From positions 2,025 to 66,024 of the forward strand of contig JBIMKP010000022.1 in NCBI GenBank assembly GCA_051861545.1: a stretch of DNA of 64,000 nt, written 5' to 3'. Position 1 is the stretch's first letter. Every line of letters starts with the position of its first letter. The notes beneath the pieces are model-generated. The model was not told the origin of the DNA and did not search any database. It was given only the letters and a program-made list of their open reading frames with translations. Below are positions 32,414 to 61,219 of the stretch, piece after piece. This stretch comes from Bacteroidia bacterium (lineage in GTDB: Bacteria; Bacteroidota; Bacteroidia; UKL13-3). The position numbers were made by a program, and so were the translations under genes.

Positions 32414-32422
32414 CATTATTTA

Positions 32423-44296: not shown

Positions 44297-44967
44297 TGTT
44301 ATTTAAAATTTGATTCAAAAATATTGTATTAAATCAGAATGATAAAATAGTTTTGATAAGGGGGATAATTAATTGTAAAAACGGAAATATTTGATGTTGC
44401 CTTAAATCGATTAAGGTTTCCCTAAATTAGGTGAAATTTGCCATTAAAAACAATTTGACACTTACGAAAAGATTCTGGTTTTGGAATTTTGAAGATGGAT
44501 TGTAATTGACGTAAATACTTGATTATTAAAATTTTCAATTCATTTACCCCATAAAAAACAAAAACCCGACTGTTTGATTTGCATCAGGGACAACCGGGAT
44601 AACGGATCAAATATACTACTTGTTTTTGAATTTCCTAATATTGATTCAAAAAAATAAAAAAAACATGAATCAACAAGAATTTGAAATGGCCATTTCAAAA
44701 GCTCGTTTCGAAAAATATTTAAATGCTACTAATTGTGATTTTGATAAAGCCCTTCAATTTGTTTTTTCAAGTTTAATTTATTGAAAAACGAATATCTGTA
44801 TGTTTACCAGTAAATTATATTAGTAAATTCCTAAATATTTTAAAATTGATTTATGAATTGTATTTAGGTAAAATAAATTAAAAATAGAATCCTGTTTATT
44901 ACGAAATTTCCTAAAATCCTATAGGGATGATATTATAGTAGTAAACAAAACTGAATGAATTACCCAG

Positions 44968-45016
44968 ACGCCAAAACGGGCGCGAACCGAAGGTTCGCGA
45001 CCGTTTTGGCGTCAGA
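44968..45016. repeat. GC-rich near-perfect palindrome (22-bp stem, one mismatch, GAA loop)
   Basis: GACGCCAAAACGGGCGCGAACC-GAA-GGTTCGCGACCGTTTTGGCGTC in a 1-kb AT-rich ORF-free region. Confidence 0.6.
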
Positions 45017-45340
45017 GTGCTGTTATTAATTTACTGGTAAAGAAGCGGATATTCGTGAAGTGGAATTTAGTAATTTAAGAAGCAATATAATTACAGAAAT
45101 TTTGAAATGAGCTCAATTTGAAATTTCTCTGTTTTCAGCGGTTTTAATAGGACTGATTTAATTGTGTTTATTGTCTATTGTGCAGATTTTCTAAAATAAA
45201 CCTTAAGGTTTGGCAAATTGTTGATGGGCGTGCGTTTTGACTAAAATGGAAATAGGGGAATGGATTAAATCAATTACTAAAATTGTACCTTCTTTAAACA
45301 TTTAATGATAAACGTGATTGCTTGATTGGGATTATTTTTC

Positions 45341-45894
45341 TCAAGTTATTTTATTTAAATCAGCCTTAATTTTATCAAGCTCTATTAGTAAGTAATTTAT
45401 TTCAAGTCCTTCAAATTGGTTTCTAAGATTCAGACTAATTTTAATCTTTCTACAAAGCCAATCTGTAAATGGCCCATAATTATATTTTTCGGCCGGAGAT
45501 CCATCAAAAGCACAATCTGCTTGAATATAGAGTTCCACATTTGGGTTTTCTGAATTAAGCTTGAAATGATAGAAGTTATAGCCCTGCCATTGTGCAAAAA
45601 CAAATTGATTAGGACTGATTTCATTTTTGTCTAATTCAATAGCTCTTTTGAAACCTCACTAGCATAATTTAAACCTGAAAGGGAAAAATCTTGGTGGTCA
45701 TAAATTTTTAACTTTGATTTTGCCATCTTGAATAAAAATAATCTATATGCTTTTGGAAATGTAACTCCTATCAGTTTTTCATATCTAATAATTTCTTCTT
45801 CACTATATCCTTCCGGAAATATTTCAAGTTTATTTTTAATTAGAAAATCAAGAATGGAACAATAGAAATTCTCAAGATAATCTGTTTTGTTCAT
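45341..45894 (-). pseudogene. SMI1/KNR4 (SUKH-1) family immunity-type protein, frameshifted
   Basis: N-terminal 87-aa ORF (…FPEGYSEEEIIRYEKLIGVTFPKAYRLFLFK…) stops at 45631. The continuation KNEISPNQFVFAQWQGYNFYH...ELYIQADCAFDG...DKIKADLNKIT is open in another frame down to 45341. Confidence 0.65.
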
Positions 45895-45904
45895 ATTTTA
45901 CTTA

Positions 45905-46846
45905 TTACCAAGGTAGCTTTAGTTTTTCTATTTCTGTTGTGTATAAATTTTCAAGTTTTTCTATGATATCATGTGAGATAAATGACTCTGTGCTTTTAAC
46001 ATTGCTTATAAGCTGTTCAATAGTTAAATTACCTGGAATTACAGTGGAAACAGCATCATAAGCTAAACAGAAAGCTATTGCTTTTTGAGCCATGTTTTCT
46101 TCTTGCCCCACAATAGACCTAACTTTATTTACTAATTCAGCTCTGGTTTCGATATCATTTTTTGACCACCTGCTTCTTATATCATTAAAAACACTTTCTG
46201 AATTATATTTTCCACTTAACCAACCCGAATCAAGAGGGATTTTAACTATAATTCCAATATCTTTTTGTTGTGCCTGTTTAAACCCTCGCAAAGTATCTTG
46301 ATGAAAAATATTAAAAAACACTTCCATTACTTTTGAGTTAGTGGTTTCCATCAATAACTTCATGTCGTCATAAGTATCTAAAGAAGCACCATAAGCTTTT
46401 ATTTTGCCTTCATCTATAAGTTTGTCGAGAATTTCATAATGGTCATTTTTGTTGCCATCAAAATATTTTGAAGGTGGATTGTGAATGATAAGTGAGTCGA
46501 CATAATCTACCTGAAGTCTTTTAAGGCTTCCTTCTAAAGATTCTCTGATGTAATTCGAATTAAAATTTAATAAGCCATCATGTGTGTGACCAAATTTTGT
46601 ATTAATTACAATTGTATTTCGCTCAACTCTTTTAAGTGCTTTTCCTAATCTTTCCTCACCAGAACCATGACCATAATTTGGAGCTGTATCAAAGAAGTTA
46701 ATTCCCAAATCCAAAGATTGATGAACAAGATTAATTGCCTCAGGTTCTGACATACTTTTCCATCCCGAATTTTGTCCTAATTGCCAAGCACCAAGACCAA
46801 TTTCAGATATATTTATGGAGTTATTGATGTATTTCTTGTATTTCAT
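45905..46846 (-). CDS. aldo/keto reductase
   Basis: 313 aa; GLGAWQLG, DTAPNYGHG, IIHNP motifs. Confidence 0.85.
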   Translation of the reverse strand: MKYKKYINNSINISEIGLGAWQLGQNSGWKSMSEPEAINLVHQSLDLGINFFDTAPNYGHGSGEERLGKALKRVERNTIVINTKFGHTHDGLLNFNSNYIRESLEGSLKRLQVDYVDSLIIHNPPSKYFDGNKNDHYEILDKLIDEGKIKAYGASLDTYDDMKLLMETTNSKVMEVFFNIFHQDTLRGFKQAQQKDIGIIVKIPLDSGWLSGKYNSESVFNDIRSRWSKNDIETRAELVNKVRSIVGQEENMAQKAIAFCLAYDAVSTVIPGNLTIEQLISNVKSTESFISHDIIEKLENLYTTEIEKLKLPW

Positions 46847-46946
46847 TTGTTGAAAATTTCTTTTAAAGGATTCTCTTAGTCTAAACTTTATTCTTTGCTA
46901 TTTCTGGAATTTAATCAACTGAATATTCTTATATTTCATTGTTCTT

Positions 46947-47378
46947 TTATTGCTTAAACATTTGACTGGAAATTATTCCTTTATTATTTTGATTTGGCTC
47001 AATTAAGTCCCATAAATTGCCATATAAGTCTTCGAATACAGCAACTGTTCCATATTCAAAAGTAGTAGGAGCTCTAACAAAATTTATTTGATTATTTAAC
47101 ATTTTGTTATAATCTCTAAAAAAGTCATCAGTGAATAGAAAAAAACCTACTCGTCCGCCGGTTTGATTTCCAATACTTTCCCTTTGTTTATCATTTGAAG
47201 CTTTAGCTAGTAAAATGCAACATTCTTTTGCTCCTTTGGGAGCAATGAGTACCCACCTTTTTTCATAGTTTAAGAATGTATCTTCCAAAAGTTGAAAGTC
47301 AAGTTTCTTAGTGTAGAAATCGATAGCCTCATCATAATCGTTTACTACCAATGCAATATGTGCAATTCTTTGATACAT
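46947..47378 (-). CDS. VOC (glyoxalase/bleomycin-resistance) family protein
   Basis: IAHIALVVNDYDEAIDFYTKKLDF. Confidence 0.7.
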   Translation of the reverse strand: MYQRIAHIALVVNDYDEAIDFYTKKLDFQLLEDTFLNYEKRWVLIAPKGAKECCILLAKASNDKQRESIGNQTGGRVGFFLFTDDFFRDYNKMLNNQINFVRAPTTFEYGTVAVFEDLYGNLWDLIEPNQNNKGIISSQMFKQ

Positions 47379-47470
47379 TTCGTTTATTTATTACTTATAG
47401 ATTTTTGATATAAGGTTTACTATCGAATGAATATATTCAATTGTTTAAGCTACTTTTCAAATATTTGGTT

Positions 47471-47818
47471 TTATTGTGTTCCTTTTAGAAAATCACCATC
47501 AATAATAAGAAGTTTTACTCCCTTAGCGGATAAAGATCTGTGAGAGCTAAGTCCATCAGAAACCACGTATGTTTCTCCTTTTGTTAGTTTAATTTTTTCA
47601 CCTGTTTTCAGTTCACTAATAAACTCGCCTTCCAAACAATGCACAATATGTCCTTTTTGACACCAATGGTCTGCTAAATAGCCTTTAGAATATTCTACAA
47701 GTCGAATTCTAAGCCCTTCAAGTTGCAGAGTTTGCCAATAGGCAGAACCGGTTTCGCCTTTATGTTCAATTTTTTCTATAGCAGTCCAATCTATAGTTTG
47801 AAATGGTATGTTAAACAT
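47471..47818 (-). CDS. cupin-domain protein
   Basis: 115 aa; HxH...E...H-type beta-barrel segment (DHWCQKGHIVHCLEGEF). Confidence 0.55.
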   Translation of the reverse strand: MFNIPFQTIDWTAIEKIEHKGETGSAYWQTLQLEGLRIRLVEYSKGYLADHWCQKGHIVHCLEGEFISELKTGEKIKLTKGETYVVSDGLSSHRSLSAKGVKLLIIDGDFLKGTQ

Positions 47819-47985
47819 TTTGTTTGTGGGTTTATAATAGTGATTTTATCTTAGGTTTTGAAGAGAAATAGTGAGGATAAGGTTATAATTTAATTTATTT
47901 TATTGATGCGAATTTTTCTAAAACAATTATCCTTCGAATCCAAGCCTATAATTCATCTACTAAGCAGTTGATGATGTCTTTTAAA

Positions 47986-48534
47986 CTAATAATCTTCTTC
48001 TAATTCTCTTTTTATAATTTGTTTTGCTGATTTCCTATCTGTCTTACGAATTTTGGATTTTTCTTTTTGGTGGTATTTTTTCTTATCACTAAAAAAGTTC
48101 ATGCTTGTCCATGCTAAACCGGAATCATTTTTTACTATTAAACCATTCCAAATGCAGTCTTCGTAAGGACAACTATGCTTTGAGTATGTTCCAAAATTTC
48201 TATGTTTAATTCTCTTTTCAGAAAGGATTTTATGTTGATTTATTTTAATAGTATTCCAAATATTCTCTTGGTCTCCTTTAGTAAGAATTTGACCTAATGT
48301 TGATACTTCAACATATGTCATTGGGTCTTTAAGTTGTAGGAAATCAAATGTCTTAATAAAAAAATTGTGTGCATGGTTTCTAACCTGGATTTTATGTTCA
48401 ATATTTAATTTGTCATTTTCTAATAATGAACGGTAAAGACCTAAGGTATTGAAGTCCTCATATTCTTTATAATTGTCTATGTAAAACAAATATTCTGCAA
48501 TTGTTAAAAGACTAAATTTTTTGCCAATTTTCAT
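47986..48534 (-). CDS. hypothetical protein, Lys-rich C-terminus
   Basis: 182 aa, no recognisable domain. Confidence 0.4.
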   Translation of the reverse strand: MKIGKKFSLLTIAEYLFYIDNYKEYEDFNTLGLYRSLLENDKLNIEHKIQVRNHAHNFFIKTFDFLQLKDPMTYVEVSTLGQILTKGDQENIWNTIKINQHKILSEKRIKHRNFGTYSKHSCPYEDCIWNGLIVKNDSGLAWTSMNFFSDKKKYHQKEKSKIRKTDRKSAKQIIKRELEEDY

Positions 48535-48726
48535 TCTTCAATTTGTATCTTTTGTTAATATTATCTTTTTGAAATTTTTTAGATTGGATAATATGTTAGC
48601 CGCGCTCTAGCCTTTAAAATACTATATTTCTTTTGAAGGCCATACTTCAATAATAGTAAAATTCGATTAAGTGATGATAATATACTTAAATGAAGGTAAT
48701 TTTTTGATGACTGAAATTGTTTCTTT

Positions 48727-49338
48727 TTAAGTAGAAAGTTTGTCTTTTAAAATGATTTTTAGTTTCTGAAATACATAATAAACTAAAAGTCCGATTAAGA
48801 ACCCAATTAAAAGTCCAACAACTGCCCCTATAAATAATGCAGTTTCTGTTGTGAACCAATGAACTAAATTGTTTAGTATCCAAATTCCTATTGAACCAAC
48901 AAATACTCCGGCTGTAGTTGTTGTTGAAAAGATAAATGTTTTGATAGCACTCTTGACCGATTTATAATAAATCCCTATAATAACTGAAGCAAAAATTATT
49001 CCGATACCAATTAATCCAATGATTAGTAAAATTTCTATGGCGGTCAAAACTATACCCGCTCCGATACCAAGAAACATCAATCCAATTCCCATCAATCCAA
49101 ATATCCCAGGTCCGTTTAATACATCACCTTCAATCTCTTCGTTAAAGTTCTCTGTTTGGTTTTGAGTTAATGTGTCAGCCTTGATTTTTTTTGCTTGTGT
49201 ATCATTTCTTATTTGACCATAAGAATATGAAGAAGTAAAAGTCAGAATTGAAATTATTAACAAGCCTACAAAAACCTTTAAAATTGCAATTATGCTTTTA
49301 AAAGTTACCATTCCCATTTTATTTATCAAGGTCTTCAT
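48727..49338 (-). CDS. hypothetical membrane protein with extended glycine-zipper helices
   Basis: GIFGLMGIGLMFLGIGAGIVLTAIEILLIIGLIGIGIIF; overlaps the upstream gene by 20 nt. Confidence 0.5.
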   Translation of the reverse strand: MKTLINKMGMVTFKSIIAILKVFVGLLIISILTFTSSYSYGQIRNDTQAKKIKADTLTQNQTENFNEEIEGDVLNGPGIFGLMGIGLMFLGIGAGIVLTAIEILLIIGLIGIGIIFASVIIGIYYKSVKSAIKTFIFSTTTTAGVFVGSIGIWILNNLVHWFTTETALFIGAVVGLLIGFLIGLLVYYVFQKLKIILKDKLST

Positions 49339-49924
49339 ATTTATAGGAGTTTGTGGTTAATGTTTTGTCTTTTAAATATCCCCAATACGTTTCGTTTCGA
49401 TTTGGGTTTGTTATATATTCAATACCATCTACGCAATCATTTGTATCAAATTCGAAACTAACATTCCCTTTTGCATATAACTTTAAGTCACAAGCTCCGT
49501 AAGGAAAATAAATTGATGTGTCTAGCCAATACTCATAACAATCATTATCTATATTTTCTAGGGTCCATTCTCTTTTATATTCTACTTGTTTGCCTGTTTT
49601 GTCCTTTAAGATTTCTTTATTATCATAAGGTGAAATAGATATTTTTCCTGCTACTACATTTATAAATGTCAAAGTACCAAAACCCTGAATTATTGTTTCA
49701 TGAGCAGAAGAATTCTGAATTATTGATTTTAAATTAATTTCCTTTTCTAAGTTTTTGAATTGTGTCCAGTCAAAACCAGGCATTAGGCCGGCACCCCAGA
49801 CTTTAAATGAAACTGTTTTTGGTAGGATATTAGTTGGTTCGAAAAAAATAGTCTTGCTATCGTAAAAGTTTACACTATTTGCGTCATCAAATAATTCTCT
49901 TGTTAAGTCTATTGTTACTTTCAT
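49319..49924 (-). CDS. hypothetical soluble protein
   Basis: 201 aa; no known motif; translationally coupled to the 48727..49338 gene. Confidence 0.45.
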   Translation of the reverse strand: MKVTIDLTRELFDDANSVNFYDSKTIFFEPTNILPKTVSFKVWGAGLMPGFDWTQFKNLEKEINLKSIIQNSSAHETIIQGFGTLTFINVVAGKISISPYDNKEILKDKTGKQVEYKREWTLENIDNDCYEYWLDTSIYFPYGACDLKLYAKGNVSFEFDTNDCVDGIEYITNPNRNETYWGYLKDKTLTTNSYKYEDLDK

Positions 49925-50107: not shown

Positions 50108-50542
50108 TTACGTTTTATTTAATGTCTGTAATTCACTTATTAATTCTTCTAATCGGGTCTTTGTGCTTCGCTTACTATAGTTGTAAATTGGTCTAAATAT
50201 TAGGAACATCAAAAACAAATAGAATAAAGTGCAAACTGCAATTGGAATGAACATTTTATTTAATATTGAAAAATACATCCCCAATAAAGGTAGGATAGTA
50301 AATGTAGCAGTTATTCGCATATCTAAGATTAAATACCCGTTTATTTCAGTTCCTTTATCCGTCGCTTTCCAAGTTAAATTAACCATAGGTCTGAATGCAT
50401 TTCTTATTGGAAATTGACCAAGTGTAAATTTTGTATTATTGTTTATAATTGAACCATAAAATGCATTGTTAGACGACATTTGAAAAGAGTTGTATTGCTG
50501 AATATTAGTTTCTATGATACTTTGTGCTTGCTTTACGGTCAA
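50108..50542 (-). CDS. hypothetical membrane protein
   Basis: 144 aa; two C-terminal TM helices. Confidence 0.45.
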   Translation of the reverse strand: MTVKQAQSIIETNIQQYNSFQMSSNNAFYGSIINNNTKFTLGQFPIRNAFRPMVNLTWKATDKGTEINGYLILDMRITATFTILPLLGMYFSILNKMFIPIAVCTLFYLFLMFLIFRPIYNYSKRSTKTRLEELISELQTLNKT

Positions 50543-50558
50543 ATCACTAACTAATGTA

Positions 50559-50802
50559 GGGCTTGCTGAAAATCTAAATTAGCACTAATTATCAATCAAT
50601 TGAATTAGTTTTTTATAAATCACGGGAAAGGTTTTAAGAACAATTGCTTAAAAATCCTTGCATCAAGTAAAATTAGATTTCAAATTACCTAAAGACAGAA
50701 ACAAGGCCATCTTTGTCGTTGCTGCCAAACTGAGGTATTATTTATACATCTATTTTGGCAGCGTCTAAAATCTGACCTGTTTCTGTCTTTTTCAGCGGGC
50801 CC
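50559..50802 (+). mobile_element. MITE-like palindromic element, copy 3
   Basis: TIRs GGGCTTGCTGAAAA...TTTTCAGCGGGCCC; 7-bp TSD TAATGTA (50552..50558 and 50803..50809); lies 16 bp upstream of the start codon of the 50108..50542 gene. Confidence 0.85.
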
Positions 50803-51027
50803 TAATGTAAATTTATCGGTCTTAAATGGAAACATATGTCTGTTATCTTGGGCTTAAATCTAAGGTTTTTTAGCTAGACGAAGTGGTTGACTTTGATGCA
50901 CCTACTTTCAATTTGGCATATAATCCGATAATTTGCCAAACTGCGGTTAAAGTTTTGGGCTCAATTTCGGTTAAGATTATTTTTTATTTTCCTGTTCTTC
51001 AAAATTGTTAAAGTATGTAAAAGGCAT

Positions 51028-51690
51028 TTAAAGGGCCTGTTTGCGGTAAGCTTTAACGGCTCGTTTAAGCGCTTTTTCAATATTTTTAAAGTTTACATGT
51101 TGGCTTTTACTGTACATGTTTCTATCCCAATGTACTTGCTGTCCGTTAATAAAGCTTAGGCCATTTTCATCAAATACACAAAACAATATAGTTAGCGTAT
51201 TCTGCATAAACAAAATTTGGCCCGGTGGAGAAGTTACACCTTCATATGCTGAAAAATTTAGGATAGGTAACATGTGCGCTTGAGTTACTGAGTAATTTTT
51301 ACTTAACGAATCGAGCAATGGCTTAAAAAATAACTTATCACTAACAACACTTAGAGGTGCTGCTTGCACCGTAAAAGGTTTAATCTTAAAAAGAATATCA
51401 TTATTTAAGGCTGTAAAAAGGTGTTTAATAATGGTATCTCTATAGAAGGTATCATTAAGTAATATTCTTTGGCCAGTTTTATTGGTAGCTATATGGTTTA
51501 TAAGCCCACAATAAATCACCTGATTTGTGATTAAAGGCTTAGCAGACATTGCTTGGCTATGTTTCAGATTAAAACGTCTGTAAGCGATATTTTTATTATT
51601 GCAAGCCACCAATAGCATCAAGCAAATAAGTGCAACATAGTGGCTTTTAAAAACCAATTTATTATTCAATAGATAGATTTTCGGTATCAT
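51028..51690 (-). CDS. hypothetical lipoprotein
   Basis: Lipobox LLVAC; 220 aa. Confidence 0.5.
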   Translation of the reverse strand: MIPKIYLLNNKLVFKSHYVALICLMLLVACNNKNIAYRRFNLKHSQAMSAKPLITNQVIYCGLINHIATNKTGQRILLNDTFYRDTIIKHLFTALNNDILFKIKPFTVQAAPLSVVSDKLFFKPLLDSLSKNYSVTQAHMLPILNFSAYEGVTSPPGQILFMQNTLTILFCVFDENGLSFINGQQVHWDRNMYSKSQHVNFKNIEKALKRAVKAYRKQAL

Positions 51691-51728
51691 TATTTAAAAT
51701 GGCTTATATCGTTTTATATATTTGTTTT

Positions 51729-51826
51729 TGGCCGGCGTTTATAATCAAATGTATATATGGGAAACGAATTAATCAACCAATAAAATCGCATTAGAAGGAG
51801 AGGTATTGCATTTAAATTGTTATATT
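51729..51826 (-). promoter_or_regulatory. conserved upstream module A (promoter plus conserved ~50-bp upstream sequence)
   Basis: One of four similar ~100-bp modules; on the minus strand it reads TTGATTAATTCGTTTCCCATATATACATTTGA, i.e. -33 TTG / -7 TAnnTTTG. Confidence 0.5.
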
Positions 51827-51839
51827 GAGTTTTCAATCG

Positions 51840-52331
51840 TTAGTGCGAGCTACCGAAATATTTTTTCTCATCAAGGTCATAATAAGCAAATACAGAATTG
51901 CATTGCCATCCAACGGCATTAATACTTTTTGTTCTATTTTTGGTTATAACACCGATTTCCTTATATCTAACTCCTATCCAAGCTCGTCTTTTTTCTTGAG
52001 GAATGGTTTGGATGTCCTTAGTTTTATAGAATTGTATCAAATTGTTAATTGGTATTGATTTTACTTTATCAAAAGCCCAATTCGTCTCGTAAATAATTAT
52101 AGTTGTAATTAAGATATATGTAAAAAATATTGATGTAATAATTATGACTTTAATATATCGTGGTCTTAACCCGAAAAAATCATAAGCTTTATAGCCATAG
52201 AATATACCAATTCCAATTATCCCGTAAAGTGGTAGATATATTATAATGTCAAAGTCCATTTCTAACCCAATTATTGTCATCATAGATATGATAAATAAAT
52301 ATGTTAAAAGATATTTGATGGTTTTTGCCAT
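51840..52331 (-). CDS. hypothetical membrane protein
   Basis: 163 aa; 3 TM helices plus C-terminal soluble part. Confidence 0.5.
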   Translation of the reverse strand: MAKTIKYLLTYLFIISMMTIIGLEMDFDIIIYLPLYGIIGIGIFYGYKAYDFFGLRPRYIKVIIITSIFFTYILITTIIIYETNWAFDKVKSIPINNLIQFYKTKDIQTIPQEKRRAWIGVRYKEIGVITKNRTKSINAVGWQCNSVFAYYDLDEKKYFGSSH

Positions 52332-52378
52332 TTTTTTTGTCGTTTTTATAATACCCTATAACTTTTTGCACATTTGCT

Positions 52379-52480
52379 TTGGACCTGCGTTTAAACTCAA
52401 ATGTAAATAGGGGAAAAGAATTAATCAACCTCTAAAATCTGTAAAACGGAGAGGTAATGCCAGTAAATTGTAATTGTGTG
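52379..52480 (-). promoter_or_regulatory. conserved upstream module B
   Basis: GCGTTTAAACTCAAATGTAAATAGGGGAAAAGAATTAATCAAC...; most similar to modules C and D. Confidence 0.5.
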
Positions 52481-52481
52481 T

Positions 52482-53339
52482 TTAATGTTTGGGTTTGTTG
52501 ATTTCATCAATTGTCAAGCTTTTATAAAAAGTTTCAAAGTCTTTGTCTTCTCCATAGTTGTTTATGATTTCAAATAAGGTGGAATACTTTTTCAAATAAA
52601 TCATTTGTCTGTATGGTTCCTTTTTGTTCGTGCTTTGAAGTATTACACGTATTGCTTTTGTATTATTGATGTTTATTGTGTCACGCTTTTCGCTTACTTG
52701 TCCTTTGAATATAGATTTTTCTATTGCAATAAAATGCTCATTTTTATAGTCGCTAGTGTCTTGCATCCAGATGCACCATTTCATTGAATTTGTTATATCA
52801 TTTTCGGGGTTCTCAATTTTGTCTCCAATGCACTTTCCATTTTGAATATTTTCTACAACTAAATTTTCGGGGTATTTGAAACTTATTACAAAACCAAAAT
52901 TTACTGTGTCTCGATATGTCATCCAATTAACATCAGTTAAAAACTCAAGTTCTCCTTTTTCTACAGTTTTCGTGTATTGTTTTGCTTTTCCGTCATTGTT
53001 GGTAAACCCAATTACAACAAAGTCTTGGTTGTATAAAAGTCGAAAGTTTTTTTGTGTCACATTAACTTTAGCAATGTAAGATGCAGTAGTGCTTTTCCAA
53101 TTATCATGATTGTTGTTCACCCAGTGGATTAATTTTTTAAACTTTTCAGAATTAGGGTCAATTTTTTTTGTTACACTTTCTGTAAGTCCAGTTTGGTCGT
53201 TGATTTTGTGAATTGTTAAATTCAATGGTGAATTGAGGTCAATATATTTTTCAATACTTGTTTCTGTTGAACAACTTGAAATTGTCAACAGTGAAATAAA
53301 AGTTATAATGATAATCGTTCCATTCATAGTTTTTGTCAT
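52482..53339 (-). CDS. hypothetical lipoprotein
   Basis: Lipobox LTISSC; 285 aa. Confidence 0.5.
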   Translation of the reverse strand: MTKTMNGTIIIITFISLLTISSCSTETSIEKYIDLNSPLNLTIHKINDQTGLTESVTKKIDPNSEKFKKLIHWVNNNHDNWKSTTASYIAKVNVTQKNFRLLYNQDFVVIGFTNNDGKAKQYTKTVEKGELEFLTDVNWMTYRDTVNFGFVISFKYPENLVVENIQNGKCIGDKIENPENDITNSMKWCIWMQDTSDYKNEHFIAIEKSIFKGQVSEKRDTININNTKAIRVILQSTNKKEPYRQMIYLKKYSTLFEIINNYGEDKDFETFYKSLTIDEINKPKH

Positions 53340-53524
53340 AGCCTTTCCACTGATGTTCTGAGAGCTTGCACAGTGCGGATTCGATACAGAATTGTTTCAG
53401 CCAAATGCGAACTTAGTGGGAAGATCATACTTTCACAAAAAGAAAAACCACATTACAATAAGCCCTTTGTAAGTAGGTGGTTTATCAATTTCTTCTTTTG
53501 AAGTAGTAGTTATTGAGAAGACTA

Positions 53525-54130
53525 TTATAGGTTGTTAATGTCTTTGTTTAAAAGATAAAACTCCTTATCATAATTATCTATCAGTTTCTTATCCAAGTTA
53601 AGTTGTTTGACTGTCTTGCCAGTTGAATAGTTTTGTAATGATACAATTTTGCCATTTAGTATATCAATACTTAAGGTGTCGAAAAATTTATCAGTCGGTA
53701 ATTGAGATGTCTGAAAAACAACTGTTTTGTTGTTTGTTGTTTTACAAGCATAAATCATATACTCAGTATTTGAAACAAACTCGTAGGAGTAGTCTGTAAT
53801 AGTGAATATATGTTGAGTAATCTCTTTATTTTTATTGTCTTTCGATTTCAATTTATGAAGTCCCTTCAAATAATAAATAGTTGCACTAAGCACTGAAAGA
53901 CCAGCTAATACAGGTTTTAAATACACTGAGGGCGTGATTAGTCCGAACTTTTCGGAAATAAGTAAAAGTACCATTAGTCCGAAGAATGTTAGCACGCCAA
54001 TTATTACGCTGTCACTAAGTGCTTTTTTTCTTAAATGTTCTTTTTGCTTTTTTAAGTCAGCAAGTACAGAAGATGATAGACTTTTCTCAACTATTTTCAT
54101 TCGTAATTTTTGGCATTTTTGGTTTGACAA
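53525..54130 (-). CDS. hypothetical membrane protein
   Basis: 201 aa; two TM helices then a soluble domain; the start is possibly MKIVEK at 54109. Confidence 0.5.
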   Translation of the reverse strand: MSNQKCQKLRMKIVEKSLSSSVLADLKKQKEHLRKKALSDSVIIGVLTFFGLMVLLLISEKFGLITPSVYLKPVLAGLSVLSATIYYLKGLHKLKSKDNKNKEITQHIFTITDYSYEFVSNTEYMIYACKTTNNKTVVFQTSQLPTDKFFDTLSIDILNGKIVSLQNYSTGKTVKQLNLDKKLIDNYDKEFYLLNKDINNL

Positions 54131-54175
54131 GATTGATTGTTAAAACTTGTCGATAGGGTTTTGATTATTTGTTAT

Positions 54176-54284
54176 TGGCCAGCGATTATACTCAAATGTA
54201 AATAGGGGAAAGGAATTAATCAACTAGTAAATCCCGTTAAACAGAGACGAATTGCACACCTATTGTAATTGTACTCTGTACTCT
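54176..54284 (-). promoter_or_regulatory. conserved upstream module C
   Basis: GCGATTATACTCAAATGTAAATAGGGGAAAGGAATTAATCAAC...GAGACGAATTGCACACCTATTGTAATTGT. Confidence 0.5.
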
Positions 54285-54333
54285 TAGTGGCTGATGTTCT
54301 ATCCAATCTTTTGCTTTATTTAATATTAGTTTA

Positions 54334-55128
54334 TTAGCTATTATTTGATTTCTCTCTCTCTAACCCAATTCTGTTTACGGTTTCATAAAGTAAAGTTGCA
54401 TTCACTAACAAGCGTTCAAGCTCTTGTTCAAAAAATGCTTCAGTATGTTCGTTCCACTTTTTTGGTGAATTATTCAACTCTCTAAAACTTTTTGAAAGAG
54501 TTGAAATGTATTCCTTTTTTTGTGGAGCATCATTGATAAAAATTGGTGGATATAAATCAAACATCAGCATCCAGTTTTTCGCAATTCTTGTTACTCTCCC
54601 GTTGCCATCTGCGAATGGATGAATTCTAATCAACTCGTGATGAAAATAAATAGCTCTGATAATAGGATTTGTTATACTATTCATTTGATAAAATAGCTCC
54701 GAAACTAACTGCGGAACAATGTTTTGATCAGGACAAATATGTCCACCTATTTGCACTAAAGTCTGTCTGTAACGATTTGGGTGAATGGCATTGGTCTCAG
54801 GAGAAACTAAACGGAGTAACTGAAAAAGTTGTAATTCTTTTTCAAAATTGTTGTGTGTTATTATCTCCTCAATTACAAAGTCTAACGATATTTTTAAGTT
54901 TTTTAAATATTCTTCTGCTTCCTCTTCATTTTGAGCTTCCATTTGTGCATTTTTCAAACTAAGAAGTTCTTGGAGTTCTTGTACACTAGTCAAGTATGTG
55001 TCTAAAAGGTCGTCATCCAAATGGTGTCGGCTATATATAATTAATCTATAAATTGACTTTACTAAATGGTCAATCTTATCAATTTTGGCTTGATTAATTT
55101 TTAATTCTTTAACTGGTAATAATTCCAT
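54334..55128 (-). CDS. Fic/DOC family protein
   Basis: Canonical HPFADGNGRVTR Fic motif. Confidence 0.8.
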   Translation of the reverse strand: MELLPVKELKINQAKIDKIDHLVKSIYRLIIYSRHHLDDDLLDTYLTSVQELQELLSLKNAQMEAQNEEEAEEYLKNLKISLDFVIEEIITHNNFEKELQLFQLLRLVSPETNAIHPNRYRQTLVQIGGHICPDQNIVPQLVSELFYQMNSITNPIIRAIYFHHELIRIHPFADGNGRVTRIAKNWMLMFDLYPPIFINDAPQKKEYISTLSKSFRELNNSPKKWNEHTEAFFEQELERLLVNATLLYETVNRIGLEREKSNNS

Positions 55129-55631
55129 TTGTCTATGAATTTGTTAAACTGTAAATCATCGGCTAAGCCTACACTTAAGGTTTTGGTAATTGACCTATTA
55201 AGGGATAGCTTAGCACAAATTTTACCTTAACTGTTAATTTCAAAAATAAACTTTTCTGCCGATTCTTTTTCCTCTAAGATTTAAAGCCATTATTGCAACT
55301 AAACGACTATTGAATGTCGTTTTTTTTAATCATAAAGTTTGCAAACATTTCTATAATAAAAATCACAAGGGATAAACTCATTTCAAACAAAAAAACAGTA
55401 AGCGTTTTTGATAAAATTCTTTTGCTTTTTCTTTTAGGTATTTCATCCTCAAAACTCAACTCAACACGATTATTAAACAAAAAAATACTAATAACAATAG
55501 TTTAAGAAGTTAAATCATTTAACACTATCTGTCTATAAAAATGTTGAAGCATGGTTGAGTATAAAACCTAAAATTATTCCTATTGTGGTTACCAAAGGTT
55601 GTCGATATGATTGAATTTTATCTTCTATATT

Positions 55632-57005
55632 TTACATCAAATCAATTATTTTATCTGCTTCTCTAATGCCACTTAAGTATGCTCCGTGTGCGGTTGAAAA
55701 ATAGTCGGCTTCGGTGTGTTCGCCTGCAAAGAATAATCTATCGTTAATTTCTTCTGCCAAGTCTTCAAAATGGCGCATTTCTGTACCAATTTGAGTGAAA
55801 GAATAAGCTCCGAATGAATTTACATTCGTTTGCCATTTAGTTCTCAGCATATTGGTAGGATTAGGAATACTATTTCCATAAATATCTTTTAAATGAGCCA
55901 TTATTTCGTCTATTATTTGTGCATCCGTCATTGATTCTGTCTGCCTTGCATAATTTGAATATGCAAAAGTCATTAAACCATTTAGGCTTGGGTGAAATTT
56001 TTTAACATTCACAAAATAGTTGAACTTATCTCTTGTTTCTGGTGTGTAACAAATGTATTGTTCATTGTCCCAAAATGCAGTATTCCAAGTAAGTAAAAAT
56101 TTATTGACGCAATTCATACCAACTTTTTGAATAGCTGTTTGTTTAGCTGTAGGCAATGTTGGAACAAATTGTATAGTGCCTGATTTTAAAACTCCCAGTG
56201 GAACGGTTACCAATACATAATCAGCTTCTGTGATAGTTTCATTATGTGTAATCTTTGCCTTAGAGTTTGAATAATCAATTTTTGAAACTCGTTGATTAAG
56301 TTGAATATTTAATCCCTCTGCTAAAAAAAATGGAATAGTGTCATATCCATTCGTTGAAATTCTTTCTTCTCCTGTAAACTCTTCGCCTTCATCATACAAT
56401 GTTGAGGAAACTTTATCTAATTCGCCTAAATCAAATGTTACATAAGTAGATAATAAAAATTTCCAAAGTCTATCATTTACTTTTGTTGGGTGCAAGCTAT
56501 TAAAAACAGTTTCAAAACTTTGGTTTGCACTTCCGCTATTTTTAAGAGTACTTAAAATGGTTTGTAATTCTGTTTCGGCATTATCAAATGCTGTGTCGCT
56601 TCTCAAAACGCCACTAATATCATAGCACACTAAACTTTCATCATCAGTGAAAGCTGTGTTCATTCCTGCTTGTTGAGCCAAATTTGTGATTGGGTTTCCA
56701 TTTGTTCCGTGTATCCAACTTGCTCCTTCGTCAAAAGCAAAGCCAAGAGATCGATTAGTTCGTAATCGTCCACCCACTTTATCTTGTGCTTCTAACACAA
56801 TTATATTGAAACCTTTTTCTTTCAGTTTTTTTGCTGCTGCTAAACCTGAAATTCCTGCTCCAATAACTACAACTGTTTTTCCGTTTGGTTCGTGGTCTTC
56901 ATCTTTATTACAAGAACTTGCTAAAATTGAAGGTGCGATAAGAAAAATTTGTAAACCTGTTAAGGAGTCTTTTATAAATTTTCTTCTTTCCATTTTTTTG
57001 TCCAT
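55632..57005 (-). CDS. flavin-containing amine oxidase family protein with Tat/lipoprotein-type signal
   Basis: RRKFIKDSLTG twin-arginine segment; VVVIGAGISGLAAAKKL dinucleotide-binding motif; amine-oxidase C-terminal FFAGEHT. Confidence 0.8.
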   Translation of the reverse strand: MDKKMERRKFIKDSLTGLQIFLIAPSILASSCNKDEDHEPNGKTVVVIGAGISGLAAAKKLKEKGFNIIVLEAQDKVGGRLRTNRSLGFAFDEGASWIHGTNGNPITNLAQQAGMNTAFTDDESLVCYDISGVLRSDTAFDNAETELQTILSTLKNSGSANQSFETVFNSLHPTKVNDRLWKFLLSTYVTFDLGELDKVSSTLYDEGEEFTGEERISTNGYDTIPFFLAEGLNIQLNQRVSKIDYSNSKAKITHNETITEADYVLVTVPLGVLKSGTIQFVPTLPTAKQTAIQKVGMNCVNKFLLTWNTAFWDNEQYICYTPETRDKFNYFVNVKKFHPSLNGLMTFAYSNYARQTESMTDAQIIDEIMAHLKDIYGNSIPNPTNMLRTKWQTNVNSFGAYSFTQIGTEMRHFEDLAEEINDRLFFAGEHTEADYFSTAHGAYLSGIREADKIIDLM

Positions 57006-57067
57006 ATTTTAGTTTGTTCATGGTGTTTCGCTATAATAGCATTCAATGTTTTTAGCGCTTCTGCGAT

Positions 57068-57166
57068 GGTTGTGCGTTTATGCTCAAATGTAAATAGGGG
57101 AAAGGAATTTACCAACCACTAAAATCCCTTTAAATGGAGACGAATTGCATGCCTATTGTGAATGTG
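57068..57166 (-). promoter_or_regulatory. conserved upstream module D
   Basis: GCGTTTATGCTCAAATGTAAATAGGGGAAAGGAATTTACCAAC...GAGACGAATTGCATGCCTATTGTGAATGT; about 80% identical to module C. Confidence 0.5.
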
Positions 57167-57809
57167 CTGTAAGCGGTAGTTGTGTTGGTCATCGTCATCA
57201 ATTTCTCTGACTTTAATATTGTCCAAATAGACCTTTTTATTTACGTTATTTTTATACTTTTATAAGGTCTTGTTTTGATATAAAATAAACTTCGGTGTCT
57301 TAAAATATAGAAGTACTTTATTTTAAATTGTCGTCTTTTTATTTATAGTTTATTATTATTTCTAGTCAATTTGTCTTTTTAGATTTTTTTTAATCTGCTC
57401 CGGTTGGGCAATTGATGTATTATTTTATCTTGTTCTAAACATACCAAGTCCATATAAGAGTCGATAGGTTTCTATGTCAAAAGTGTATTTATTTGAAATA
57501 ACATTTCTAAAGACTTCGAAAGAAGGTTCCTGATTGCTGCGACACTTGTCACAACAGTCCACTGAAAAATTTGTCTCGTCCTGAAAAATGTTTACACTTA
57601 TTGATAAATAATCCTGTTACATGTTTACACAATTTTTTAAATCCTGAATACCGTTTACATTTGTTTTACTGGATGAAGCGGAAGCGAGCTCTGCTGAGGA
57701 GCAACTCGCCAGGAATAATCCAGTCAGATGAGCATATAAATCCGTTATTAGGTTTACACTTGATAATGGATTTACTTTTTATATGCACTTCTGCCAAGCC
57801 TAATAAAAC

Positions 57810-58656
57810 CTATGCCATAGCTACCTCCTCCTTTTTTTGTTTATTGATTTGATAATAATTTTTCCATCGTTTGTTGAGTTTTCCGGTTCCTTGATGTGCT
57901 TCAACAGGTTTAAGATTATCAATGCTCCCATGCGGTCTTAAATGATTGTAAGTGCTACAAGCTACAGCTATTGCTAGTTGTGCTATTTTAAAATCGACAA
58001 ATACCTCTTCTAAAAGTTCAGATTTTAAAATACCGTTTACTCTTTCTGCAAGCGGGTTTTCCAAGGGGTCTCCATTTTCTGTCATTGAAATTTTAATGGT
58101 ATTATTGTGTAATAACTTTACATATTCATCGCAGCAGTATTGCACTCCTCTATCACTGTGATGAATTAAATTTTCACAATCTGTATTACCGGTCAAAGCC
58201 ATTTTTAATGCTTTTAATGGACCTTTTGCCGATAAATCTTCACTCAAATAAAAGCCAACAATTTTATGGCTGTATGCATCTGTTATAAGTGATAAATAAG
58301 CAAAGTCATCCGATAAATGAATATAGGTTATATCACTTACCCAAAGCTGATTAGGGGCAATGGGTATAAAGCCTTTAATGATGTTTGGAAAGTGTGGTTA
58401 TACATCCTTTGCGCCTTCGTTTTGTAATCAACATGCCTCGTTCTGCCAATAGATTAAACATTGCATCTCTTCCTATTTGAAAATTATGGTCTTCTAAAAA
58501 TCCTTGCATTTCATGCAATAGTTTTCGGGTGCCTAATCGCTTCTGATGCTTTCGATAACGCAACACTTCATCAATGACAATATCAGCTTCGTATGCTTTT
58601 TGCTGAATAAATTTTAGGCCTTGATAGTAGCTTTGCCTACTATAACCAAGCAGCAA
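57810..58656 (-). pseudogene. IS3-family transposase OrfB (rve integrase core), frameshifted
   Basis: DDE region ...WVSDITYIHL..., HSDRGVQYC, ERVNGILKSE. The reading frame breaks at about 58375 between ...TLSKHH* and KGFIPIAPNQLW. Confidence 0.7.
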
Positions 58657-58700
58657 ACAAAGGTCGTTTATGCAACGAGGCTTCCTTTGTCCAACTGTTT

Positions 58701-59033
58701 CTACCGCTTGGTGCCAGACTTTTTTCTGATGTCAATTTTAAGTTGATCTTCTGCAATATCAATCATTGCGTTGAGCAGCTCGTTGTGAAGTTTTGCTTTA
58801 CGCAATTCTTCCTGCAAAGTTTTTACATCAGTTGGTAAGGGCTCTGCAGAAATTGGTTGGATTTGTGTTTTTGTTTTTGGCACTGATTTACCTTGAAATT
58901 TTCTTACCCACGAATGTATTAATCTGAAATCAATCTCATGCTTTTTTCCTAACTGGCGGTAACTTAATTCGCCCATTAAATACTCTGCAATGATTTTCTC
59001 TTGTTCTTCTTTTGTTTTCGTTCTTCTTTTCAT
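58701..59033 (-). CDS. IS3-family transposase OrfA (HTH/leucine-zipper)
   Basis: 110 aa; EEQEKIIAEYLMGELSYRQLGKKHEI helix-turn-helix. Confidence 0.8.
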   Translation of the reverse strand: MKRRTKTKEEQEKIIAEYLMGELSYRQLGKKHEIDFRLIHSWVRKFQGKSVPKTKTQIQPISAEPLPTDVKTLQEELRKAKLHNELLNAMIDIAEDQLKIDIRKKSGTKR

Positions 59034-59143
59034 TTTTGTTTACACTTTTTTGTGTAAACCTATTTTAGGACGAGACAGTCTACTTTAATTATAGACCATA
59101 ATTCTTTAATTAAAATCTTTTAGATGATGATTTTTGTGAATTG

Positions 59144-61207: not shown

Positions 61208-61219
61208 CTGGATTGTATT

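What the first reader, a model, noticed from the sequence alone, without database searches (positions are those of the whole stretch)
44297..59077. Accessory island of small lipoprotein/membrane genes, a SUKH immunity-type pseudogene, a Fic gene and a secreted amine oxidase, bounded by a 1-kb non-coding gap and an IS3 element
Between the core AIM24 gene and the IS3 element, the content changes to short genes lacking known domains. Most are predicted lipoproteins or glycine-zipper/TM proteins. They sit with an SMI1/KNR4 (SUKH-1) gene (the classic immunity family of polymorphic toxin systems), a Fic-domain protein, MITE copy 3 and the repeated promoter modules. This composition is what is expected for an array of orphan immunity or defence genes (acquired interbacterial defence) rather than metabolic genes. 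None of the adjacent ORFs looks like a cognate toxin.
Basis: inference. Interest (0 to 1): 0.7.

Follow-up and report, generated by a model that had tools for sequence, protein, structure and literature searches.

The report
Decayed gene-cassette array with repeated promoters
A 15-kb stretch of a low-GC Bacteroidota genome is a one-directional array of accessory genes, several with their own copy of one repeated promoter, and it looks like a worn-out relative of integron-like or "orphan immunity" cassette arrays, although a protective function is not shown for any gene.

Summary
AIM24 is on the left and a TIR-bounded IS3 (57572-59077) on the right. Between them lie a ~1-kb gene-free gap, a frameshifted SUKH gene, a Fic gene, a Tat-signal flavin amine oxidase, MITE copy 3 and a 114-nt promoter module (4 good copies and 1 degenerate, none elsewhere in the window).

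All 16 genes are co-directional. Eight small proteins match no Pfam, NCBIfam or PADLOC family, but five of them have homologues elsewhere.

Orthologues of two of them (p285, p220; 76-80% aa) sit in different neighbourhoods in four other genomes or metagenome contigs. Three of those four places are co-directional arrays that mix unknown genes with Barstar, DMP19, ParE/RelB, Fic/VbhA and PIN genes and have their own repeated intergenic elements.

The window's module is homologous to attC-like elements in those arrays. Those elements have TAAC...GTTA ends and 20-24-nt inverted arms, and their bottom strand folds better. The window copies have lost the arms and kept a consensus Bacteroidetes promoter.

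No recombinase, toxin or GC anomaly is present.

Verdict: a fossil integron-like or rAID-like cassette array. An immunity role is plausible for a few genes but unproven. Interest is moderate.

The parts
44297..45182 (.). Gene-free distal end of the array, possibly a decayed cassette. It holds a 269-nt element bounded by inverted repeats (44788-45056) with a 27-bp GC-rich hairpin (44962-45018).
   Evidence: There are no ORFs with family matches. The bounding inverted repeats are 30 nt and 87% complementary, and the hairpin gives z = -7.7.
45183..45340 (-). Module copy 5, degenerate. The -7 box is mutated (TCCATTTT instead of TACATTTG) and no gene follows it.
   Evidence: nhmmer gives 1.7e-29 with the module profile. 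The 19-mer core is at 45242-45260.
45341..45894 (-). SUKH-1 (SMI1/KNR4) gene broken by one frameshift near 45631-45650.
   Evidence: The two reading frames join into a 184-aa protein. That protein scores SMI1_KNR4 3e-08, 34.8 bits, covering profile positions 3-123 of 125.
45905..47818 (-). Three enzyme genes: aldo/keto reductase (45905-46846), VOC/glyoxalase (46947-47378) and DHCW-motif cupin (47471-47818).
   Evidence: Pfam gives 2.3e-51 and 2.9e-18. NCBIfam NF038084 gives 1.4e-48.
47986..48534 (-). p182: a cytoplasmic helical protein of an uncharacterised family, with the motifs FNTLGLYRS and KRIKHRNFGxYSKHxCG.
48727..49924 (-). Two-gene unit with overlapping ORFs: p201a (49319-49924, soluble by inspection) and p203TM (48727-49338, a glycine-zipper multi-TM protein).
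   Evidence: The ORFs overlap by 20 nt. p201a has 11 representative homologues, one of which lies between MoxR AAA_5 and DUF5682/VWA genes.
50108..50542 (-). p144: a small protein with two C-terminal TM segments. Its start codon lies 14 nt from the MITE.
   Evidence: ORF list, with only a sub-threshold Pfam hit (ATG5_HBR, E 0.003, below the cut-off).
50557..50804 (+). MITE copy 3 (248 nt, terminal inverted repeats TAGGGC...GCCCTA).
   Evidence: It is 79-94% identical to the copies at 18140-18396 and 32415-32671.
51028..51690 (-). p220: a lipoprotein (LVAC lipobox) that follows a module copy.
   Evidence: A 78% aa orthologue lies in a different array on a 1.3-Mb contig (L084). Nucleotide homology is limited to 51038-51708.
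51691..51839 (-). Module copy 1, the promoter for p220.
   Evidence: The motif TTG-N20-TATACATTTG lies 56 nt before the start codon.
51840..52331 (-). p163TM: a membrane protein that follows a module copy.
   Evidence: ORF list, with no family match.
52332..52481 (-). Module copy 2. It starts 4 nt after the p285 stop codon and keeps a GTTAT core at its 3' end.
52482..53339 (-). p285: a two-domain lipoprotein. The N domain belongs to a family of ~130-aa lipoproteins. One domain (by its predicted secondary structure probably the C-terminal one) has a PsbP/Mog1/Tsi3-like fold.
53525..54130 (-). p201b: a protein with two TM segments and a C-terminal domain. It follows a module copy.
   Evidence: A homologue at 59% aa is followed by an Imm35 gene in L092.
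54131..54299 (-). Module copy 3.
54334..55128 (-). Fic-domain protein with an intact HPFADGNGRVTR motif, related to FICD.
   Evidence: Pfam Fic gives 1e-14. The best PDB match is FICD at 4.8e-14. It is not a SoFic equivalog: 23.5 bits against a cut-off of 550.
55632..57005 (-). Flavin amine oxidase with a Tat signal and lipobox, polyamine-oxidase/LSD-like. It follows a module copy.
   Evidence: Pfam Amino_oxidase gives 2e-81. The best PDB matches are LSD1/2, spermine oxidase and maize PAO.
57023..57184 (-). Module copy 4. It is the copy closest (84%) to the arm-bearing copy in metagenome contig L090.
57572..59077 (-). IS3-family element at the 5' end of the array. Its transposase is split into three ORFs and there is no target-site duplication.
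   Evidence: The terminal inverted repeats are 26 nt and 88% complementary. Pfam matches HTH_Tnp_1 and rve_3. The flanks were read directly.

Best explanation
The island is a fixed, decaying array of gene cassettes of the integron-like or rAID-like kind found in Bacteroidota.

Sixteen co-directional genes were stockpiled as one- or two-gene units. Between several of them lies a ~150-nt junction element descended from an attC-like recombination site. In this lineage the element's central part is a consensus Bacteroidetes promoter (TTG-N20-TAnnTTTG). Four genes (p220, p163TM, p201b and the amine oxidase) are therefore each predicted to be transcribed from their own copy, 56-80 nt upstream.

The inverted arms and TAAC/GTTA core sites that homologous elements keep in other genomes have mutated away here, and no recombinase lies in the window. 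The array is therefore probably no longer shuffling. MITEs, an IS3 element, a frameshifted SUKH gene and an empty fifth module mark its erosion.

The content is a grab-bag typical of such arrays: small envelope and cytoplasmic proteins of unknown families, a Fic enzyme, a periplasmic or surface amine oxidase and three detoxification-type enzymes. Some of them (SUKH, the p285 lipoprotein, perhaps p201b and p182) probably are or were protective 'immunity-type' proteins.

Shown: the anatomy, the repeats, the promoter motif, the homology of the module to structured elements elsewhere, and the non-syntenic distribution of two of the genes.

Inferred: the recombination origin, promoter activity and any immunity function.
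For: 1. All genes from 45341 to 57005 are on the minus strand.
2. The module occurs 5 times in the island and 0 times in the other 49 kb. The four intact copies account for 4 of the 7 full TTG-N17-21-TAnnTTTG matches on the minus strand of the window, and each lies 56-80 nt before a start codon.
3. True module copies occur in two metagenome contigs (L088, L090), again after a co-directional small gene.
4. There is a chain of homology. The window modules match L090 (84%, E 4e-32). L090 matches L084:5228-5410 (blastn 2e-6). L084:5228-5410 also matches a profile built only from module copies (nhmmer 7.7e-5), and it matches L096:10844-10995 (2e-12).
5. Those three elements have 21-24-nt inverted arms (18/21, 20/24 and 19/23 matches; none of 500 shuffles reached the observed score, p < 0.002). 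They start with TAAC or TAAT (L084e) and end with CGTTAG or CGTTAC (L084e). Their bottom strand folds better than the top (z -3.5/-0.6, -4.1/-2.5 and -5.0/-2.2). Bottom-strand folding and AAC/GTT cores are the defining properties of integron attC sites (PMC5027507).
6. In L096, 8 of 9 intergenic elements show such arms, often starting at the stop codon.
7. The p285 orthologues in L096, L097 and L098, and the p220 orthologue in L084, have entirely different neighbours. Neither tblastn with 24 window proteins nor blastn finds anything shared except the gene itself.
8. The arrays hold known conflict genes: Barstar, DMP19, ParE/RelB, Fic/VbhA, PIN and Imm35.
9. The island is absent beside AIM24 in the nearest relative.
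10. rAID arrays are defined by co-oriented short genes plus conserved intergenic motifs 'reminiscent of integrons'.
Against: - The window's own module copies show no inverted arms (p 0.18-0.98) and no hairpin on either strand (z -1.8 to +0.4). The recombination-site origin therefore rests on homology to three elements elsewhere, one link of which is only E 2e-6.
- No tyrosine recombinase is in the window. tblastn with an E. coli XerD sequence recalled from memory gave E of 1.7 or worse, and inspection of the ORFs and the Pfam results found none.
- GC is not skewed.
- Only 5 of 13 intergenic regions carry the module. The enzyme genes, p182, p201a/p203TM, p285 and Fic have unrelated upstream regions.
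- Restriction of homology to the ORFs is also what ordinary divergence at ~80% identity would give.
- Promoter activity is a motif match, not a measurement.
- No relative closer than 78% nt was available, so the age and variability of the island within the species are unknown.
Confidence: 0.5

Rival explanations
1. This is an ordinary strain-variable 'hypothetical-gene' island assembled piecemeal by IS- and MITE-mediated rearrangement and sporadic horizontal transfer. The module is just a locally duplicated strong promoter, or a small palindromic repeat (MITE/REP-like) that has colonised intergenic spaces. It has no role in cassette capture, and the genes have no common function.
For: - An IS3 element without a target duplication, a MITE and a second TIR-bounded element lie in or at the island.
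- The window modules have no recombination-site features.
- The content is mixed and includes ordinary enzymes.
- No recombinase is present and GC is native-like.
- One p182 homologue sits among housekeeping-type genes.
Against: - All five module copies have the same orientation, are confined to the island, and four are placed 56-80 nt before a start codon. The bona fide MITE, by contrast, is scattered over the window.
- The same architecture (co-directional genes with lineage-specific repeated junction elements) recurs in three unrelated loci that were fetched only through single protein homologues.
- The elements in L096 begin at stop codons and show strand-biased folding.
Confidence: 0.3
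2. This is a co-regulated envelope regulon. The module is a shared operator-plus-promoter through which one regulator switches on a set of surface or periplasmic proteins. The regulator could be an ECF sigma factor, or the LuxR-type two-component system encoded at 62.9-64 kb. The set would comprise two membrane proteins, a lipoprotein and the Tat-exported amine oxidase.
For: - All four genes that follow a module encode proteins with signal peptides or TM segments.
- Conservation extends ~75 nt upstream of the -33 element, beyond what a promoter alone needs.
- A GerE/HisKA_3 two-component pair lies 6 kb away.
Against: - Identity of 62-84% over 114-150 nt is far more than a shared operator requires and indicates common descent by duplication.
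- The fifth copy has no gene.
- The p220 orthologue in L084 has a different upstream region.
- The module is homologous to palindromic junction elements in other arrays.
Confidence: 0.12
3. This is a functional orphan-immunity (AID) cluster in the strict sense. Most of the eight small proteins would be immunity proteins against T6SS, T9SS or contact-dependent toxins of competitors.
For: - A SUKH gene is present.
- The p285 fold resembles Tsi3, TplEi and Tli4_C.
- Neighbours of the homologues include Imm35, SMI1_KNR4, Barstar and DMP19.
- The envelope location suits neutralisation of periplasm-acting toxins.
Against: - The only recognisable immunity gene is broken.
- None of the eight proteins matches any Pfam Imm/SUKH family or PADLOC model.
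- p182 has no structural relative.
- The PsbP/Mog1 fold is shared with many non-immunity lipoproteins such as LpqN, DcrB and PsbP.
- There is no cognate toxin anywhere, and enzymes are interspersed.
Confidence: 0.2

Closest known systems
Recombinase-associated acquired interbacterial defence arrays (rAID-1) of gut Bacteroidales (Ross et al. 2019, bioRxiv 10.1101/471110; PMC12247911)
   Same: [quoted passage not shown]
- Both have conserved, repetitive intergenic sequences.
- Both include SUKH-domain genes.
- In both, the content differs from genome to genome.
   Different: - No XerD-like recombinase lies at the 5' end; an IS3 element sits there instead.
- GC is not skewed.
- Only one gene, a pseudogene, is from a known immunity family.
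- Enzyme genes are interspersed.
- The host appears not to be a gut Bacteroidales: its closest relatives are freshwater Chitinophagales-like MAGs.
- Protection has not been tested.
Sedentary chromosomal integrons and CALINs (clusters of attC sites lacking an integrase)
   Same: - Both are co-directional one- or two-gene cassettes separated by 70-150-nt junction elements.
- Homologues of the junction element in other genomes are imperfect palindromes with TAAC...GTTA ends and bottom-strand-biased folding.
- The cargo is typical of such arrays: toxin-antitoxin pairs, VOC/glyoxalase, and small lipoproteins and unknowns.
   Different: - The window copies no longer fold and mostly lack the core sites.
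- No IntI is present.
- The junction element carries its own promoter, whereas integron cassettes are mostly promoterless and read from Pc (PMC5027507).
- Only some of the junctions carry the element.
Polymorphic-toxin immunity islands and defence islands (SUKH, Imm families, Fic/Doc, TA modules)
   Same: Both combine a SUKH-1 domain gene, a Fic gene and mobile-element scars, and homologues of the island genes lie next to Imm35, Barstar, ParE and PIN genes.
   Different: There is no toxin or toxin remnant, no secretion-system linkage, and no match of the small proteins to any catalogued immunity or defence family.

Membership tests
rAID-1 (recombinase-associated AID) | A XerD-like tyrosine recombinase gene at the 5' end of the array (more than 44% identical to BF9343_RS08045) | tested here: not met
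   No recombinase-like ORF was seen in the 64-kb window (Pfam). tblastn with E. coli XerD, recalled from memory, gave E of 1.7 or worse. The 5' end of the array is an IS3 element. The reference recombinase itself was not available to test.
rAID-1 (recombinase-associated AID) | [quoted passage not shown] | tested here: met
   There are 16 genes, all on the minus strand, and most are 115-313 codons long.
rAID-1 (recombinase-associated AID) | Conserved or repetitive intergenic sequence motifs | tested here: met
   The 114-150-nt module occurs 5 times at 62-75% mutual identity and is absent from the rest of the window.
rAID-1 (recombinase-associated AID) | GC content skewed relative to the host genome | tested here: not met
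   The island GC is 0.306 against 0.318 for window positions 1-44296. GC3 is 0.20-0.30 against 0.17-0.26.
rAID-1 (recombinase-associated AID) | Genes homologous to known or predicted immunity families that protect against toxins | tested here: inconclusive
Integron / CALIN | attC sites: imperfect palindromes of 57-141 nt with RYYYAAC / GTTRRRY cores that fold as bottom-strand hairpins | tested here: not met
   The window modules show arm complementarity of p 0.18-0.98 and fold z of -1.8 to +0.4 on both strands. Only m1 keeps TAAC and only m2 keeps GTTAT. The feature is met by the homologous elements L090, L084:5228-5410 and L096:10844-10995.
Integron / CALIN | An integron integrase IntI adjacent to and divergent from the array (not required for a CALIN) | tested here: not met
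   None is in the window. None lies at the 5' end of the L096 array, where the upstream ORFs are a Polyketide_cyc2 protein and a TM protein.
Integron / CALIN | Promoterless cassettes expressed from a common Pc promoter | tested here: not met
   Four junction elements carry a full TTG-N20-TAnnTTTG match 56-80 nt before the next start codon. This is evidence at motif level only.
SUKH / SMI1_KNR4 immunity proteins | A SUKH domain above the Pfam gathering score in an intact ORF next to a toxin gene | tested here: not met
   The domain is present after repair of one frameshift (34.8 bits against 25.4). The ORF is interrupted, and no toxin domain lies nearby.
Fic AMP-transferases | The catalytic motif HxFx(D/E)GNGRxxR and the Fic fold | tested here: met
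   HPFADGNGRVTR is present in the sequence. Pfam Fic gives 1e-14 and FICD gives 4.8e-14. The inhibitory-helix motif (S/T)xxxE(G/N) is only approximated (TSVQEL). The protein is not a SoFic equivalog: 23.5 bits against a cut-off of 550.
Flavin amine oxidases (polyamine oxidase / LSD clade) | The Amino_oxidase domain with an N-terminal FAD-binding Rossmann motif | tested here: met
   Pfam PF01593 gives 2e-81 over the full length, with NAD_binding_8 at 2e-16. The closest solved relatives are LSD1/2, spermine oxidase and maize PAO. The substrate was not tested.
IS3 family | Terminal inverted repeats, an HTH orfA plus an rve-domain orfB, and a 3-4-bp target duplication | tested here: inconclusive
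   The TIRs and domains are present. orfB is split and no target duplication is seen. It is probably an inactive copy or the product of a rearrangement.

The most novel reading that the evidence does not exclude
Environmental Bacteroidota, not only gut Bacteroidales, may carry an integron-analogous cassette system. In it, attC-like bottom-strand hairpin sites (TAAC...GTTA) double as per-cassette promoters, so every captured gene would arrive with, or land behind, its own expression signal. The window would be a fossil of such an array, in which selection kept the promoters after recombination competence was lost. The recombinase (XerD-like as in rAID, IntI-like, or other) is unidentified.
Probability: 0.3. 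Interest if true: 0.7.

Novelty: new variant of a known kind. Interest (0 to 1): 0.45.

Why it matters
How rAID-type orphan-immunity arrays are built is stated to be an open question (PMC12247911).

The window's repeated promoter module is homologous to hairpin-forming, strand-biased junction elements with TAAC/GTTA ends in other Bacteroidota arrays. That link suggests a single-stranded, integron-type capture mechanism. It offers concrete sequences to test: excision-circle PCR, recombinase co-occurrence and TSS mapping.

It also shows that such arrays occur outside the gut Bacteroidales, and that they carry many protein families with no annotation. Five families are delineated here: p182, p201a, p201b, p220 and the two p285 domains.

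For the window itself the practical message is modest. The island is accessory, largely decayed, and its 'immunity' label is unproven.

Tried and rejected
- Concatenated homology search. A word-index homology search with four concatenated small proteins returned nothing, because the candidate list was swamped. A concatenate without the glycine-zipper protein worked in the exhaustive search.
- Rfam. No family matched in the island, even at E up to 1, and there are no tRNA genes. This argues against a riboswitch or RNA element and against a tRNA-targeted island.
- PADLOC. Only Fic-type models hit.
- Domain fusions. Fusion partners of the p285 N domain gave no Pfam clue.
- Plasmids. p182 has no match in 72,556 plasmids.
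- Prophage or ICE remnant. No phage or conjugation domain was found.
- Abi-like gene in the gap. I suspected that the small plus-strand ORF at 44620-44784, interrupted by the TIR element, was the N terminus of an Abi-like gene. Pfam gave no support, so I dropped the idea.
- Hairpins in the window's junctions. I looked for attC-like hairpins in every intergenic region of the island. Only the two MITE-type elements fold significantly.
- Shared cassettes. A search among the five arrays found none beyond the query genes.
- Module in related loci. The module is absent from the 80 AIM24 loci of related species representatives and from L084 at up to 3 mismatches.
- Covariation counting. It was not attempted on the arms, because MAFFT placed gaps that shift the register. 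Per-sequence arm scoring with shuffles was used instead.

Full report
**What is there**

The window is low-GC (~0.31) Bacteroidota DNA. It carries T9SS cargo genes (CHU_C, Por_Secre_tail) and an RNase P class A RNA. The closest species representatives by AIM24 are freshwater Chitinophagales-like MAGs, the best at 88% aa.

From AIM24 (43502-44296) to an IS3-family element, every gene lies on the minus strand. Read in the direction of transcription, the order is as follows:

- IS3, with 26-nt terminal inverted repeats at 57572-57597 and 59052-59077 and its transposase in three ORFs;
- module 4, then a Tat/lipobox flavin amine oxidase (55632-57005; Pfam 2e-81);
- Fic (54334-55128);
- module 3, then p201b;
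- p285, a lipoprotein;
- module 2, then p163TM;
- module 1, then p220, a lipoprotein;
- a 248-nt MITE (50557-50804);
- p144;
- the overlapping pair p201a/p203TM;
- p182;
- DHCW cupin, VOC/glyoxalase and aldo/keto reductase;
- a SUKH-1 gene broken by one frameshift (rejoined: SMI1_KNR4 34.8 bits against a cut-off of 25.4);
- a degenerate module 5;
- ~0.9 kb without genes, which contains a second TIR-bounded element with a 27-bp GC-rich hairpin.

It left out the three enzyme genes. Two of the eight 'small' proteins have no signal peptide or TM segment by inspection. The island is not compositionally deviant: GC 0.306 against 0.318. The GC outlier is in fact the pair of T9SS-type genes just beyond the IS3, at 0.40.

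**The repeated module**

The four good copies are 62-75% identical over 114 nt, and the 19-29-nt core occurs nowhere else in the window.

Each copy contains TTG-N20-TA(c/t)ATTTG. This matches the Bacteroidetes housekeeping promoter consensus, -33 TTG / -7 TAnnTTTG (established knowledge, recalled rather than looked up). The motif lies 56-80 nt before the next start codon. These four are 4 of only 7 full matches on that strand of the 64-kb window.

Copy 5 has a mutated -7 box and no gene after it.

Rfam finds nothing in the island. None of the window copies folds better than shuffled sequence on either strand.

A scan of the metagenome collection found two further true copies, on L088 and L090. 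Each again follows a co-directional small gene, a lipoprotein in L090.

**The proteins**

None of the eight small proteins has a credible match in Pfam, NCBIfam or PADLOC; the few hits are sub-threshold and below the curated cut-offs. An exhaustive search of 1.84 billion representatives with five of them gave 423 hits:

- a sizeable family for p182 (~180 aa, cytoplasmic);
- two separate lipoprotein families for the two halves of p285;
- small families for p201a (11), p201b (5) and p220 (4).

Fic has an intact catalytic motif and is FICD-like. The oxidase is closest to polyamine oxidases and LSD, not to L-amino-acid oxidases.

**Where the relatives live**

The nearest species representative (L002) is collinear through the amidohydrolase and AIM24 genes (78% nt). 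Homology stops at the AIM24 start, where L002 has NAD-binding, EamA and purC genes.

p285 has 76-80% aa orthologues in three other assemblies. Each is in a different neighbourhood:

- In L096 it lies in a co-directional array with two ParE/RelB pairs and unknown genes.
- In L097 it lies on a 4.8-Mb contig, in an array with Barstar, DMP19 and avidin-like genes and next to an nSTAND3 system.
- In L098 it lies directly after uvrB, at a contig end.

Apart from p285 itself, nothing in the 64-kb window matches these loci at the DNA or protein level.

The other homologues sit in the following contexts:

| Window protein | Locus | Context of the homologue |
|---|---|---|
| p220 (78% aa) | L084 | Array with two Fic genes, VbhA, PIN/DUF6364 and unknowns |
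| p201b | L092 | Followed by an Imm35 gene |
| p182 | L082 | Followed by SMI1_KNR4 |
| p182 | L085 | Between Pnkp and Hen1 |
| p182 | L094 | Among ordinary genes |
| p201a | L083 | Between MoxR and DUF5682/VWA genes |

The arrays share no cassettes other than the query genes. This is the distribution of a mobile accessory gene pool, not of housekeeping genes.

**Junction elements in those arrays**

L084, L096 and L097 each have their own repeated intergenic sequences.

In L096, 8 of 9 junctions are imperfect palindromes. They have 20-23-nt arms (p < 0.002 against shuffles) and 25-75-nt spacers. They begin with ...TAAC, often using the stop codon, and end with ...CGTTA(G/T). Two of them keep this plan with entirely different arm sequences.

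The window's module belongs to the same family:

- A profile built only from module copies finds L084:5228-5410 (nhmmer 7.7e-5).
- That element matches the L090 module copy (2e-6) and the junction after the p285 orthologue in L096 (2e-12).
- All nine sequences align collinearly.

L090, the L084 element and the L096 element have arms matching at 18/21, 20/24 and 19/23 positions. Most mismatches are A opposite C on the coding strand, which become G·T pairs on the other strand. Accordingly the bottom strand folds better in all three: z -3.5, -4.1 and -5.0 against -0.6, -2.5 and -2.2.

Bottom-strand hairpins with AAC/GTT cores define integron attC sites. Those sites normally flank promoterless cassettes (PMC5027507). 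Ross et al. described the intergenic repeats of rAID-1 arrays as 'reminiscent of integrons'.

The window copies (m1-m5) and L088 have lost the arms (p 0.18-0.98) and most core bases. They have kept the promoter core almost invariant.

**Interpretation**

The best reading is a fossil cassette array. Genes were captured singly, and the junction elements were retained as promoters. The recombination features are gone, no recombinase is in sight, and mobile-element insertions and pseudogenisation are under way.

I give this reading 0.5. The weakest links are as follows:

- The window copies themselves show no structure.
- One homology link is only 2e-6.
- No genome close enough to show cassette polymorphism was available.

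The main rival (0.3) is an unremarkable variable island in which the module is simply a duplicated promoter or a small palindromic repeat. A shared regulon (0.12) explains the envelope bias of the genes that follow a module, but not the extent of identity or the empty fifth copy.

The strict 'orphan immunity' reading (0.2, overlapping with the first) has only circumstantial support: one broken SUKH gene, one non-specific fold match, and guilt by association.

**Comparison with known systems**

Against the published rAID-1 criteria, the island meets co-orientation and intergenic repeats. It fails on the recombinase and on GC skew, and it is inconclusive on immunity content.

Against integron/CALIN criteria, it meets the cassette layout. 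It fails on folded attC sites and on IntI, and its junctions carry promoters.

It should therefore not be filed as a member of either family. It works like, or used to work like, a variant of both. Its novelty lies in the promoter-bearing junction element and in the occurrence of such arrays outside gut Bacteroidales.

I rate it a new variant of a known kind, with interest 0.45.

Noticed in passing
window 59144-62776: Two minus-strand genes just beyond the IS3 have GC 0.40 and GC3 0.37-0.39, against 0.31 and about 0.2 elsewhere. One is a 687-aa PKD/Ig protein with a T9SS tail and the other is a 518-aa protein. They, not the island, are the compositional outlier of the window.
   Followed up: partly
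window 44788-45056: A 269-nt element is bounded by 30-nt inverted repeats (87% complementary) and encloses a near-perfect 27-bp GC-rich hairpin (44962-45018, fold z -7.7). It is a single copy in the window and is probably a second MITE type.
   Followed up: partly
window 18140-18396, 32415-32671, 50557-50804: A 248-nt MITE family has TAGGGCC...GGCCCTA ends and three intergenic copies that are 79-94% identical. The independent Logan assembly of the same sequence (L001) breaks at copy 3.
   Followed up: yes
window 57572-59077: The IS3 element has good terminal repeats but no flanking direct repeat, and its orfB is split. This suggests an old insertion or an IS-mediated deletion at the 5' end of the array.
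   Followed up: partly
L096 6985-14377 (GCA_029781865.1, JAKOVW010000031.1): This is a cassette array in a Bacteroidota MAG, with attC-like junctions (TAAC...CGTTAG, 20-23-nt arms, bottom-strand bias). ParE/RelB pairs behave as single cassettes. No integrase lies at its 5' end, so it looks like a CALIN.
   Followed up: partly
L097 3436-4125 and 9172-9861: One 229-aa cassette, with 300 nt of identical DNA, is present twice in the same array (99.6% aa). The second copy lies directly before the p285 orthologue. This is evidence of recent intra-array duplication or shuffling. The protein cluster of that orthologue includes WP_320119518.1 from 'uncultured Marinifilum sp.'.
   Followed up: no
L085 5149-10663 (GCA_016056375.1): A p182 homologue and a second unknown gene sit on the opposite strand between the RNA-repair genes Pnkp and Hen1, which normally form one operon.
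   Followed up: no
L083 54-5870: A p201a homologue (52% aa) is embedded between a MoxR-type AAA_5 ATPase and DUF5682/VWA_CoxE genes in a 60%-GC organism.
   Followed up: no
window 52482-53339: p285 is a fusion of two domains that mostly occur as separate small lipoproteins elsewhere. The N domain has at least 63 representatives of ~130 aa, and the C domain has at least 21 of ~185 aa.
   Followed up: partly
window 44620-44784 (+): A 54-aa plus-strand ORF ends where the TIR element begins. It reminded me of the N terminus of Abi-like proteins, but Pfam gave no support.
   Followed up: yes
window 55632-55750 (N terminus of the oxidase): After the lipobox cysteine the oxidase reads CNKDEDHE. This resembles the K-(D/E)2 surface-export signal of Bacteroidetes lipoproteins (recalled from the literature, not checked), so the enzyme may be surface-exposed.
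   Followed up: no
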